This document shows positions 32,103 to 35,321 of a DNA stretch of 64,000 nt, piece after piece; within the stretch, counting starts at the first letter, position 1; each line of letters starts with the position of its first letter. A program made the translations under genes and the position numbers. A model generated the notes under the pieces. That model saw nothing but the letters and a program-made list of their open reading frames with translations. It ran no database searches and was not told the DNA's origin. The DNA lies in IMG/VR virus record IMGVR_UViG_3300042991_001118, positions 1-64,000 of that record, one strand, 5' to 3'. This DNA comes from a virus.

Positions 32103-32338
32103 TTGAATATCTCCTTATGCAAAACCTCAAATTGACTCTGGAATAAACTCAAAGAACAAATTAAATATAAAACGAAAATGGAAATGTAGTCAAAACTGTA
32201 GTCAACCCCAGAACCAATATCATGAGAAAATATAGAAATACCCAACTTGCTAGTTGGCAAAAATATTCTTGACTATGCAAAATAACTTATTATACTCCTA
32301 ATAATAAATCTAATATCAATAAAAATTAGGAGTTATAC

Positions 32339-33166
32339 ATGAAAAAAGATCAAGAAACAACTATCATCACAATTTACATAATCATTGACGCTCTTTGTGA
32401 AAATTTATTACGCCATCCAGCACAAAAACAGAAATTAACGGATGCTGAAATAATAACGATAGCAATATGTTCTGCCATTTTCTTCAACAGCAATCATGAC
32501 AAAGCTCTTTCCTGGCTGCGCATAGCTGGCTATTTCCCTGAGATGCTTAGTTTATCCAGGTTCAATCGAAGGATACATCGTCTAAAAGAGTTTATCAAAT
32601 TCTGTTTCGAGAGCGTCAGCGAGTTGTTTCTTACGAAAAAATTATACATCGCCGATTCTATGCCTTTGCCTGTATGCAAAAGAGTGCGGGCTTGTCGAAA
32701 TAAAAAAGTCCGAGGCAGAGAATACTATGGCTGCTGTGTTGCAAAAAATGAAAAATTCTTTGGATTCCGGCTGCATCTCATTGTGGATACCCAAGGAATT
32801 CCTGCATCTGTCGCCATTATGCCTGGAGCATACCACGATATCACTCCTGTGTATGAAGTTACGTCGCCGTTGCCGGAACAATCGACTGTCATGGGAGATA
32901 AAGCATACAACTGTAAAAATGTCGAAGATGCTTTGAAAGAATTCGGCACCACACTGATGCCCAAACGTCGTAAAAATATGAAAATGCAGTGGTCTTTGTT
33001 CGAGCAATATTTTATCATAGGTCAACACAGAAGGCAAATAGAAACATCGTTTAGCATTCTCTCCGACACTATGGGACTCAATCATATCAAAACTACGACA
33101 CTAAAAGGCTTTATGATTAAAACCTACGCTGCCGTGCTCGCTATGATTTTCTATATCGTTTTCTAA
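32339..33166 (+). CDS. IS982-family DDE transposase
   Basis: LTDAEII, SRFNRR, DSMP.PVC, FFGFRLH, HD, GDKAY, RRQIETSFS. Confidence 0.9.
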   Translation: MKKDQETTIITIYIIIDALCENLLRHPAQKQKLTDAEIITIAICSAIFFNSNHDKALSWLRIAGYFPEMLSLSRFNRRIHRLKEFIKFCFESVSELFLTKKLYIADSMPLPVCKRVRACRNKKVRGREYYGCCVAKNEKFFGFRLHLIVDTQGIPASVAIMPGAYHDITPVYEVTSPLPEQSTVMGDKAYNCKNVEDALKEFGTTLMPKRRKNMKMQWSLFEQYFIIGQHRRQIETSFSILSDTMGLNHIKTTTLKGFMIKTYAAVLAMIFYIVF

Positions 33167-33173
33167 AATCATC

Positions 33174-34646
33174 TTACAAACAAACCATACCTGCATTTTG
33201 CAACACGAGGCTGCACTCTTTAGATGGGACATAATCTTTTTGCATCGCAAAACCGACCCGCATGCCCATTTCTCCGTATCCTTTGATTACACAATATGTT
33301 CCCTTATATCGAACCACATCTCCTTTTCTCAGTTCGTCGTATCCGCTTCGTATGACTTTCTTTCCAGGCAGCACACGCAAACGTGCCAGAATTTGTTTGC
33401 CTTTTTTAGCGACTAGCTCTGTCAGGCTGTCAGACTTTTGTCCCGTTCTTTTGTTGCGATTTTTAGCCACGATTTTTGTGCCATCTTTATAGTTTCTCTC
33501 CCTTGTGGCATGGATAAGCTGGCGATGGTGCCTTCGGAACTGTTTGTATTCATATACGATAAGGTCGCTAGATTTTATCGAGCCTATTTTATCTTCGTCA
33601 GAAAAGGAGACCAGATATGCGTCTATGCAATGGCTTTTGGGAAGTCCCAGATTTTGCCGTTTTTCTTTGGTCTCGTATCCATAAGTTAGACAAACAGTTG
33701 AAACAATTTGCATCAACCATTCATAAAATAAAGGCATGATTGTGTTTAGAATCGTCGTATGAACATACTTCTTACACATGCCTGCAAATACAGCCTTGAC
33801 CTGGGCATCTACTTTCTCATGGCGATGCACTTTCTCATGGCATTTTGCGCAAAGGGTGATCAGATTTTCCGGATTGTCCCCGCCTTTCTGGCTTGCCCAT
33901 ATTACATGGTGTACGTGCAAATTCCCTTTTGTGTTACCACACAACTGGCACGTATGCTTGTCTCGGCAAAGCACGTATTCCTGGCTGTTGGCGTACCCTT
34001 TTTTTCTGCCGTTTTGGTACTGCACGCCTTGAACGGAGGGATTGTCAAGTTTGTGGATGTCGAATTTGCCATATTCCAGATGCACATGCGCTATAGGCAA
34101 TATTTTAGCTGCTTTGTCACTGAATCTTTTGTGCGTTTCCAACAAATGGCTGGCCGTAGGCGTGAGCCAACCTCTGTTTCGGCGGCGATTATGAAAGCGG
34201 ATCGGCTTAGGTTTTATCCCTTTGCAAAGCAAATTTTCGGCGGTATTCGATATTTTGTATCTCTTTTCACCAAAGTATGTTTGCGCTTTTTTCGCCCTGC
34301 GTTTTCTAACCAAACGACGATGCCTCCTTCTGCTTTGCCTGTGCATCCTGCGTTCGGCCATATTTTCGGACACTTCCTTGCTTCTAGCTTCCACATGTGC
34401 CGCAAATACTACTTCTCCATTCTCTTTTCTCACGACTAGCGCGATATCTTTTCCGCCTGGGTCAATTCCCATAATCAAAGGTTGAGTGTAGGATGTAGTA
34501 TCATATAAAAGTTGTATCGTGAATGGTTTACGACGTATTACTTTTGCAAGGCCGGCTTTTAGCAACTTTTTCACTTTGCCAAATCTTTTCGTCGGCATGA
34601 GTGGCTGGCCATTTTCCGATACGACATAAACGTAATTATTTTCCAT
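33174..34646 (-). CDS. iscB: IscB RNA-guided endonuclease (490 aa)
   Basis: PLMP, RuvC-I GIDPG, Arg-rich bridge helix, RuvC-II E, HNH (HHV...GG...NLITLC..CH), RuvC-III H..DA. Confidence 0.92.
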   Translation of the reverse strand: MENNYVYVVSENGQPLMPTKRFGKVKKLLKAGLAKVIRRKPFTIQLLYDTTSYTQPLIMGIDPGGKDIALVVRKENGEVVFAAHVEARSKEVSENMAERRMHRQSRRRHRRLVRKRRAKKAQTYFGEKRYKISNTAENLLCKGIKPKPIRFHNRRRNRGWLTPTASHLLETHKRFSDKAAKILPIAHVHLEYGKFDIHKLDNPSVQGVQYQNGRKKGYANSQEYVLCRDKHTCQLCGNTKGNLHVHHVIWASQKGGDNPENLITLCAKCHEKVHRHEKVDAQVKAVFAGMCKKYVHTTILNTIMPLFYEWLMQIVSTVCLTYGYETKEKRQNLGLPKSHCIDAYLVSFSDEDKIGSIKSSDLIVYEYKQFRRHHRQLIHATRERNYKDGTKIVAKNRNKRTGQKSDSLTELVAKKGKQILARLRVLPGKKVIRSGYDELRKGDVVRYKGTYCVIKGYGEMGMRVGFAMQKDYVPSKECSLVLQNAGMVCL

Positions 34647-34659
34647 ATTTTGCTCATTT

Positions 34660-34830
34660 ATAAAAAATTCCGAAGAATAATTCCACACGAAGGTGGTCGG
34701 TCTCCCTGAACTGGGTGCAGGATTGGCATAGAGCCTGGGATTGGGAAGTTCATCCCAGGGTACTACCTGCATCCGTGTGTCACGTCCCTACTCAACTAGC
34801 AAGCAGGGTAACCCTGATAACTACAGCGTT
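34660..34830 (-). ncRNA. omegaRNA scaffold with putative 5' guide
   Basis: tagttgagtag...taccctgggatg...cccaatcccaggctct...gggagac upstream of iscB, resembling omegaRNA scaffolds; boundaries approximate. Confidence 0.65.
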
Positions 34831-35137: not shown

Positions 35138-35321
35138 CTTTTTTTATTCCCCTTCTTTTATTATTTTCTTAATATAAACAATTTTAAATAATAAAACATA
35201 AAGATATTTATTTGTCAAGAAGAAAATAAAATATTTTATGCTTTATTATTTAAAATTTTTATGTTATAATATTCTATGCAATCTTATATGGCTTTGTTTA
35301 ATTTTATGTTAGGAGATAATA

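What the first reader, a model, noticed from the sequence alone, without database searches (positions are those of the whole stretch)
32240..34830. IS982 DDE transposon that appears to have captured an IscB/omegaRNA module
Seen: IS982-type IRs enclose a transposase and a convergent, catalytically intact iscB (stops 7 bp apart). The right IR coincides with the 5' start of the omegaRNA scaffold, so the guide would come from flanking DNA (34810 onward). Known: IscB is normally tied to IS200/IS605 (Y1 TnpA) ends, which are not IRs. Inference: RNA-guided homing or retention co-opted by a DDE element, here in a phage. Caveat: no target-site duplication is visible.
Basis: partly seen in the sequence, partly recalled or inferred. 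Interest (0 to 1): 0.85.

Follow-up and report, generated by a model that had tools for sequence, protein, structure and literature searches.

The report
IS982 transposon carrying IscB guide-RNA nuclease
A 2.57-kb jumping gene in a phage-like contig joins an ordinary cut-and-paste type (IS982) transposase to IscB, the RNA-guided ancestor of Cas9, inside one pair of inverted repeats; relatives show that the whole unit moves, so IscB has switched to a carrier type not found described for it.

Summary
Window 32240-34809 is one element bounded by IS982-type inverted repeats (IRs; consensus ACCCTRATTGCTAGT). It holds an intact IS982 transposase, an intact IscB and a structured omegaRNA.

The pairing is not a chance adjacency.
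- All 8 loci of the transposase clade (60% identity or more) with enough sequence carry iscB between the same IRs, and none has an inner IR.
- Two gene orders occur, and in both the omegaRNA 5' end abuts an IR.
- The next clade (about 45% identity) is plain IS982 of about 905 bp with nearly the same IRs and no iscB.
- IR bases 2-9 form the first omegaRNA hairpin, with compensatory changes.

Evidence that the unit moves:
- perfect 6-bp target duplications around an IscB derivative (L062) and a 222-bp omega-only derivative (L099);
- three contig ends in one genome with an identical 140-nt IR+omega start and different flanks.

New here: ATATTT lies exactly 6 bp beyond the IR far from omega (5/14 exact, 8/14 within one mismatch) and never at that offset on the omega side. 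In an empty site this is where an IscB TAM would sit next to a flank-derived guide.

The window copy has no duplication. Cleavage, guide use and homing are inferred. IscB with a DDE transposase was not found in the searched literature; TnpB with DDE is known, and this scan noted IscB on ISAzo13-type ends elsewhere.

The parts
32228..32233 (-). ATATTT motif in flanking DNA (AAATAT on the + strand), 6 bp outside the omega-distal IR. Candidate TAM or target motif.
   Evidence: The same hexamer sits at the same offset in L062, L086, L099 and L091. It is within one mismatch in 8 of 14 distal flanks and absent at that offset in 16 omega-side flanks. In 5000 shuffles no hexamer reached more than 3 identical copies at one offset.
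32234..32239 (.). Six bases where one copy of a 6-bp target duplication is expected. There is no matching copy at 34810-34815.
   Evidence: The 6-bp duplication length is taken from L062 and L099.
32240..32255 (+). Omega-distal terminal inverted repeat (IS982-type, on the transposase 5' side).
   Evidence: It is nearly identical to the IRs of the plain 905-bp relatives.
32269..32296 (+). Promoter-like site for the transposase (TTGACT, 16 nt, TATACT).
   Evidence: 10 of 12 matches. Similar hexamers lie upstream of the transposase gene in L044 and L017. This is a consensus match only.
32339..33166 (+). IS982-family DDE transposase, 275 aa, intact.
   Evidence: D106, D187 and E235 are invariant in the 22-sequence clade alignment.
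33174..34646 (-). iscB, 490 aa, with RuvC and HNH catalytic residues kept.
34647..34809 (-). omegaRNA scaffold of about 160 nt. It may run into the iscB start.
   Evidence: conserved blocks, and 14 of 37 predicted pairs show compensatory change across 5 loci. The Rfam HEARO model gives only a partial hit at 34729-34762, 19 bits.
34786..34808 (-). Hairpin P1. IR bases 2-9 pair with the 8 bases that follow a 7-nt loop.
   Evidence: 95% of cells paired, 3 of 8 pairs with compensatory change, and the covariation score exceeds all 500 shuffles. Slid controls pair in only 21-51% of cells.
34794..34809 (-). Omega-side terminal inverted repeat.
   Evidence: These are the only two IR copies in the 116-kb record.
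34810..34825 (-). Predicted guide segment, the 16 nt of flank immediately 5' of the scaffold.
   Evidence: Inferred from the known IscB omegaRNA layout (my own knowledge, plus the OMEGA review read). The sequence is unique in the record.

Best explanation
Window 32240-34809 is a member of a family of autonomous IS982-type DDE transposons that carry an IscB-omegaRNA module as a fixed passenger.

Shown:
- One pair of IS982 inverted repeats (IRs) encloses both genes.
- The IR on the iscB side is at the same time the 5' strand of the first omegaRNA hairpin.
- The unit and its deletion derivatives transpose with these IRs and make 6-bp target duplications.
- The element is multi-copy in at least one genome.

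Inferred:
- The omegaRNA is transcribed from outside the element; in the window this would be read-through of the leftward phage operon that starts near 35160-35300.
- The RNA therefore carries about 16 nt of flank, including the duplicated 6 bp, as its guide.
- In an unoccupied or excised site that sequence is followed directly by ATATTT, which serves as the TAM. In the occupied site it is followed by the IR, so the resident copy is spared.
- IscB then cuts empty alleles, and recombination with an occupied copy restores or spreads the element. This is the IS200/IS605 retention and homing logic moved onto a DDE carrier.
For: Linkage:
- All 8 close-clade transposase loci with enough sequence carry iscB, in two arrangements. 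In arrangement A the two genes are convergent (window, L002, L003, L005, L043). In arrangement B iscB lies upstream of the transposase gene on the same strand (L017, L044, L045). The IRs are only at the outer ends, and the omegaRNA 5' end always abuts an IR.
- Canonical relatives of about 905 bp have the same IR and no iscB.
- Protein hits for transposase and IscB share contig lengths and sources: 5552, 2356, 2769 and 2600.

Mobility:
- L062 is a 1971-bp arrangement-B element with only a transposase remnant, flanked by a perfect 6-bp duplication.
- L099 is a 222-bp omega-only derivative with the duplication CAACAC.
- L086 has an internally deleted transposase gene.
- In G003 three contig ends share an identical 140-nt IR+omega start with three different flanks.
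- The IR pattern occurs 10 times in G076 and 5 times in G003, against 0 for the reversed control pattern.

RNA:
- The scaffold is conserved and shows compensatory changes.
- Hairpin P1 covaries.

TAM-like motif:
- ATATTT occupies positions 7-12 beyond the omega-distal IR in 5 of 14 flanks exactly and 8 of 14 within one mismatch.
- It is absent at that offset on the omega side.
- It follows omega polarity in both arrangements, not transposase polarity.
- It is exact in none of 27 canonical-clade end flanks listed.

Both proteins are intact.
Against: - The window copy, L043 and L086 have no target duplication, and L044 is ambiguous. Canonical relatives lack one about as often.
- Only one copy is present in the phage record.
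- No empty site was recovered.
- There are no RNA data, so the 5' end of the omegaRNA and the guide are not observed.
- ATATTT could be a transposase target preference rather than a TAM. L043 and L005 have CTGCAG and CTGTAG there instead.
- P1 also persists in derivatives that lack the rest of omega (L093-L095), so it could serve the transposase at the DNA level.
- A DDE cut-and-paste event already leaves a break, so the benefit of IscB is less obvious than for IS200/605, as the review read argues.
Confidence: 0.7

Rival explanations
1. Nested or chance adjacency. An ordinary IS982 landed beside an independent IS200/IS605-type IscB element, and the IR-like sequence at the omegaRNA start is a coincidence.
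For: There is only one copy in the phage and no target duplication around it. IscB is normally tied to IS200/605 ends (review read).
Against: The same architecture is found in about 10 loci at 55-72% protein identity. The IR is always at the omega start, there is never an IR between the genes, and there is no space for an IS200/605 right end. Target duplications enclose omega-bearing units. An identical omega end lies at three sites in one genome.
Confidence: 0.03
2. The composite moves as a unit, but IscB and omegaRNA do not use a flank-derived guide for homing. ATATTT is simply the transposase's polar target preference, and P1 is part of an extended transposase-binding end. IscB would then be a passenger with another role, such as defence or competition between phages using a guide set in some other way.
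For: P1 is kept in derivatives without the omega body. The canonical relatives L006 and L009 have ATAT-rich bases after the duplication on one side. No transcript data exist.
Against: The motif follows omega polarity in both gene orders, and it sits exactly where a 3' TAM would lie in the empty site. The omega scaffold and the IscB catalytic residues are conserved across the family. The flanks next to omega differ at every copy, as expected for a guide that is reset by each insertion.
Confidence: 0.2
3. The phage copy is a decaying or immobile relic that no longer transposes. Its missing duplication reflects rearrangement after insertion.
For: No duplication is present. The omega-side flank 34811-34826 looks like a partial inverted IR, matching 10 of the first 13 bases of the window's own IR (p about 0.015; 11 of 16 against L043's IR by eye). 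The copy is single.
Against: Both ORFs are full length with all conserved residues, and both IRs are good. The closest relatives elsewhere are 92% (transposase) and 87% (IscB) identical.
Confidence: 0.07

Closest known systems
ISC / IS200-IS605 IscB-omegaRNA (OMEGA) elements, for example OgeuIscB (PDB 7xht, 7utn)
   Same: The IscB domain set and catalytic residues match (E 2e-92 to OgeuIscB). A structured RNA lies upstream of iscB and starts at the element boundary, so the guide would be flank-derived. A short conserved motif sits where a TAM would lie in the empty site.
   Different: The carrier is a DDE IS982 with terminal inverted repeats and 6-bp target duplications, not hairpin left and right ends moved by a Y1 TnpA without any duplication. 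The Rfam HEARO model matches only one hairpin, at 19 bits. The C-terminal region after residue 425 did not align to OgeuIscB, so its NWRRNA TAM (recalled from memory) cannot be transferred.
Canonical IS982-family insertion sequences, here the ~905-bp relatives L007, L009, L012 and L013
   Same: The transposase family is the same (NF033520). The 16-nt IR is nearly identical (ACCTTGATTGCTAGTT). Target duplications are 5-7 bp.
   Different: The canonical elements carry one gene and are about 0.9 kb. The window family carries a 1.6-kb IscB-omega module between the transposase gene and one IR, has a hairpin extension on that IR, and has a polar ATATTT next to the target.
TnpB associated with DDE transposases (IS630, ISL2, IS1031; branches DDE-1 to DDE-6 of Altae-Tran et al. 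2023, PMC10691335)
   Same: An OMEGA nuclease sits inside a DDE transposon with inverted terminal repeats, and its guide-RNA end lies near a transposon end.
   Different: Those cases involve TnpB (RuvC only, 3' guide at the right end). This one is IscB (RuvC plus HNH, 5' guide) in IS982. No paper in the searched library pairs IscB with a DDE transposase or with IS982.
IscB cassettes with ISAzo13-type inverted-repeat ends, noted earlier in this scan (e1-5752259, e1-5752258, e1-5883110)
   Same: IscB lies between terminal inverted repeats in phage contigs, and the repeat forms the first omegaRNA stem (unchecked AI notes).
   Different: Those cassettes lack a transposase gene and use a different IS family. 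Here the transposase is encoded in cis, and deletion derivatives are seen alongside.

Membership tests
IS982 family insertion sequence | Transposase matches the IS982 family model above its curated cut-off | tested here: met
   NF033520 at 189 bits against a cut-off of 130. Pfam DDE_Tnp_1_3 at E 7e-19.
IS982 family insertion sequence | DDE catalytic residues present | tested here: met
   D106, D187 and E235 are invariant in the 22-sequence clade alignment. Their assignment as the triad rests on motif position, not on a structure.
IS982 family insertion sequence | Terminal inverted repeats beginning with AC | tested here: met
   32240-32255 and 34809-34794. The same IR bounds the plain relatives. 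The family description of 18-35 bp IRs with AC ends is recalled from ISfinder.
IS982 family insertion sequence | Short target-site duplication | tested here: inconclusive
   None in the window copy. A perfect 6-bp duplication is present in the relatives L062 and L099, and 5-7 bp duplications in 4 canonical relatives.
IS982 family insertion sequence | About 1 kb long with a single ORF | tested here: not met
   The element is 2570 bp with two genes and an RNA.
IscB / OMEGA system | IscB architecture (RuvC split by a bridge helix and HNH) with catalytic residues | tested here: met
IscB / OMEGA system | Structured omegaRNA encoded upstream of iscB | tested here: met
   Conserved structure with compensatory pairs. 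The Rfam HEARO model is not reached (19 bits against 83), so this is a divergent scaffold.
IscB / OMEGA system | Guide derived from the DNA flanking the element end, with a TAM beside the target in the empty site | tested here: inconclusive
   The flanks differ at every copy and ATATTT is at the predicted TAM position. No RNA ends or cleavage data exist.
IscB / OMEGA system | RNA-guided DNA cleavage | not testable with these tools
   This needs a biochemical or in-cell assay.
IS200/IS605 (ISC) transposon | Asymmetric hairpin ends, Y1 TnpA, and insertion without duplication next to a fixed motif | tested here: not met
   The ends are symmetric IRs, the transposase is a DDE enzyme in cis, duplications are 6 bp, and no IS200/605 right end fits between the genes.

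The most novel reading that the evidence does not exclude
A DDE transposon has independently rebuilt the IS200/IS605 coupling of insertion site and nuclease TAM. IS982-IscB inserts in a fixed polarity 6 bp from ATATTT. Each insertion therefore automatically creates an omegaRNA guide whose target, in the empty allele, is followed by a TAM, and this gives a DDE element RNA-guided homing or retention. The transposon's own inverted repeat doubles as the first omegaRNA stem.
Probability: 0.45. Interest if true: 0.85.

Novelty: new variant of a known kind. Interest (0 to 1): 0.77.

Why it matters
IscB is the ancestor of Cas9. Its biology has been understood through one carrier, the single-strand IS200/IS605 transposons.

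A recurrent, mobile family in which IscB and its guide RNA are built into a DDE inverted-repeat transposon shows that the 'guide from the flank' strategy does not depend on that carrier. It also gives a natural system for asking how a nuclease TAM and a transposase target preference become matched.

The ATATTT prediction and the 2.57-kb autonomous unit can be tested directly.

The finding also matters for annotation: the 45%-identity clade of IS982 relatives examined here carried no IscB, so these longer composites are worth flagging separately.

Tried and rejected
Tools that were not available or gave nothing:
- One script call was lost.

Searches that found no relatives:
- The viral collection gave nothing by protein, alignment or omega motif.
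- The phage DNA database gave no match.
- Flank genes found no close phage, so no empty site.
- Relatives of G003 gave no empty site for L062.
- A phylum-level search around G001 added nothing.

Idea tested and not kept: that omega-side flanks are generally inverted partial IR copies. This is nominally significant only in the window (p about 0.015). The other loci gave p values of 0.13, 0.14, 0.69 and 0.99.

Idea rejected: that ATATTT belongs to the element itself. In L062 and L099 the duplication lies between the IR and the motif.

G001, G002 and G003 each showed a single match to the transposase alignment. The contig-end copies in G003 show that repeats of this element are broken or collapsed in the assembly, so a single match is not a reliable copy number.
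Full report
**What is in the window**

The transposase gene lies at 32339-33166 (+) and iscB at 33174-34646 (-). The longest iscB ORF runs to 34772, but homologues place the start at 34646. The stop codons are 7 nt apart.

The transposase matches IS982 family model NF033520 above its cut-off and Pfam DDE_Tnp_1_3. D106, D187 and E235 are invariant in a 22-sequence clade alignment.

IscB matches RRXRR plus HNH, NF040563, and OgeuIscB (7xht) at E 2e-92. The aligned RuvC and HNH motifs are kept.

An inverted repeat pair lies at 32239-32256 and 34793-34810, 16 of 18 complementary. These are the only two copies of the IR pattern in the 116-kb IMG/VR record. The element spans 32240-34809, 2570 bp, and its GC content equals that of its surroundings.

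**Is the pairing real?**

Protein searches gave a tight transposase clade at 60-92% identity and an IscB clade at 57-87%. Several hits from the two searches share contig length and source.

DNA was obtained for the JGI metagenome loci L002-L005 and L017 and for three MAG loci: L043, L044 (Actinomycetota) and L045 (Planctomycetota). All 8 loci of the close transposase clade (window, L002, L003, L005, L017, L043, L044, L045) have iscB next to the transposase gene; L004 is too short to tell. No locus of the clade at about 45% identity has it.

Two arrangements occur.
- Arrangement A: IR, transposase gene, then convergent iscB, omega, IR. Seen in the window, L002, L003, L005, L043 and later L086.
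- Arrangement B: IR, omega, iscB, transposase gene, IR. Seen in L017, L044, L045 and later L062.

In both arrangements the IR (consensus ACCCTRATTGCTAGT) is found only at the two outer ends. One IR abuts the omegaRNA 5' end and the other abuts the far side of the transposase gene. There is no IR between the genes.

In B the IR supplies the last codons of the transposase (..LVIN). In A the usual IR, promoter and transposase gene order is kept. So each arrangement keeps one canonical IS982 half.

A FastTree tree (SH-like support only) splits the clade into two subclades that largely follow the two arrangements. L003, an A-type locus, sits inside the B subclade, so the gene order probably changed more than once.

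**Control clade**

The relatives at about 45% identity are plain IS982 elements of about 905 bp. Their IR is ACCTTGATTGCTAGTT on both sides of the transposase gene alone. Duplications of 5-7 bp are present in four of them (L006, L009, L011, L013) and absent in several others.

This shows two things. The IR in the window is a genuine IS982-clade end. And a missing duplication is common in this group.

**Mobility of the composite**

- L062, in the same MAG as L045, is a 1971-bp B-type element that keeps only the last roughly 50 codons of the transposase gene. It is flanked by a perfect 6-bp duplication, TTCTCC on the locus + strand.
- L086 (G076, drawn from the phylum of G003, i.e. Planctomycetota) is a 2204-bp A-type element whose transposase gene lacks codons 82-216.
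- The IR pattern occurs 10 times in G076 and 5 times in G003. The reversed control pattern occurs 0 times.
- In G003 three contigs (C44, C77, C78) each end exactly 140 nt into an identical IR+omega sequence, with three unrelated flanks. This is the signature of a repeat broken by the assembler.
- L099 is a 222-bp IR-bounded derivative holding only the start of omega, with a perfect 6-bp duplication, CAACAC.
- L093 (126 bp) and L094 (209 bp) are further small derivatives.

**The RNA**

Between the IR and the iscB start lie 150-206 nt with conserved blocks. The consensus structure has 37 predicted pairs, and 14 of them show compensatory change across 5 loci. Rfam HEARO matches only one internal hairpin, below threshold.

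In the first hairpin (P1), IR bases 2-9 pair with the 8 bases that follow a 7-nt loop. Across 10 ends:
- 95% of cells are paired;
- 3 of 8 pairs show compensatory change;
- the covariation score exceeds all 500 shuffles;
- controls with the partner slid by 1-3 columns pair in only 21-51% of cells.

The scaffold therefore begins at the element boundary. A 5' guide, as in known IscB RNAs, would have to come from the flank; in the window that is 34810-34825. A caveat: P1 also survives in derivatives that lack the rest of omega, so it may also act at the DNA level.

No promoter-like site lies between 34810 and the upstream 67-aa gene. Candidates lie at 35160-35300 on the minus strand, so read-through transcription is plausible but not shown.

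**A polar flank motif**

I read the flanks outward from each end.

| Flank set | ATATTT at positions 7-12 (just past the 6-bp duplication) |
|---|---|
| Omega-distal, 14 flanks | Exact in 5 (window, L062, L086, L099, L091); within one mismatch in 8; exact but shifted by 1 nt in L044 and by 2 nt in L094 |
| Omega-side, 16 flanks | None at that offset, exact or within one mismatch |
| Shuffled distal flanks, 5000 trials | No hexamer ever exceeded 3 identical copies at one offset |

The motif follows omega polarity in both arrangements. In A it lies next to the transposase 5' side and in B next to the transposase 3' side. It is exact in none of the 27 canonical-clade end flanks listed.

In L062 and L099 the duplication lies between the IR and the motif, so the motif is target DNA and not part of the element.

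In the omega sense, an empty site reads: flank, the 6-bp target, then ATATTT. The predicted guide would be the last 16 nt before the IR. Its match in an empty site would be followed by ATATTT, the position of an IscB TAM. In the occupied site it is followed by the IR. This is the geometry needed for retention or homing of the IS200/605 kind.

It remains open whether the transposase inserts with this polarity or whether selection keeps only such insertions. L043 and L005 have CTGCAG and CTGTAG at the same place.

**What is not shown**

- The window copy, L043 and L086 lack a duplication, and L044 is ambiguous.
- No empty site, RNA end or cleavage datum was obtained.
- The window's omega-side flank resembles an inverted partial IR, but this does not generalise to other loci.

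**Literature**

- No paper in the searched library holds both IS982 and IscB.
- Papers that mention both IscB and DDE do not describe such a pairing.
- TnpB inside DDE transposons with inverted terminal repeats is described in PMC10691335.
- A 2026 review calls DDE-OMEGA pairings rare in prokaryotes and lists only TnpB cases (PMC13565253).
- Altae-Tran et al. 2021 could not be read here.
- Earlier notes of this scan report IscB between ISAzo13-type repeats in other phages, with the repeat forming the first omega stem. This finding is therefore a second carrier family for IscB, and the first of these with the transposase in cis.

**Verdict**

It is a new variant of a known kind: an OMEGA nuclease on a DDE transposon, here IscB on IS982. 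Confidence is about 0.9 that this is a composite mobile unit and about 0.5 for the guide, TAM and homing mechanism.

Noticed in passing
window 34811-34826: The flank that abuts the omega-side IR is an inverted partial copy of the IR (palindrome CAGGGT-T-ACCCTG). The best local alignment matches 10 of the first 13 bases of the window's own IR (p about 0.015 against random 20-mers); read by eye it matches 11 of 16 bases of L043's IR. It could be the remnant of another element end or of an IR-IR junction, and it may explain the missing duplication. It is not seen generally in relatives.
   Followed up: partly
L043:5868-5873 and L005:90-95 (positions 7-12 beyond the distal IR): These two loci have CTGCAG and CTGTAG where the others have ATATTT. 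This may be a second target or TAM type within the family.
   Followed up: no
L043:6845-8683 (-): The IscB of this MAG copy is 613 aa. It has an insertion of about 115 aa between residues about 126 and 122 of the window protein's numbering (two tblastn segments).
   Followed up: no
L050:993-1922 (G001 contig 4): A 930-bp element bounded by the same IRs, with no transposase or IscB hit. It is filled with short repeats that also occur near L043:4636-4795. It lies in the same genome as the L043 composite.
   Followed up: partly
L101:1500-1678 (G076 contig 530): An 83-bp IR+omega fragment is followed directly by a second IR+omega start of a different subtype that resembles the window's. The contig ends inside it. 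This looks like nested or tandem insertion.
   Followed up: no
L045:1045-1866 and L005:241-1040: The transposase gene has an in-frame TAG in L045 and a frameshift near codon 188 in L005. Some composites are therefore decaying.
   Followed up: no
window 35177-35273: AT-rich overlapping inverted repeats (37 and 42 nt arms, 84% and 74% complementary) lie in the divergent region between the 67-aa gene and the Ant-like gene. They look like an operator. This region holds the likely promoter that would read into the omegaRNA.
   Followed up: no
(hit tables): Many transposase and IscB hits sit on contigs of about 2.55-2.65 kb, which is the length of the composite. Several IscB hits sit on contigs of 1.6-2.1 kb, the length of transposase-less derivatives such as L062. 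This suggests repeats that assembled as their own contigs.
   Followed up: no
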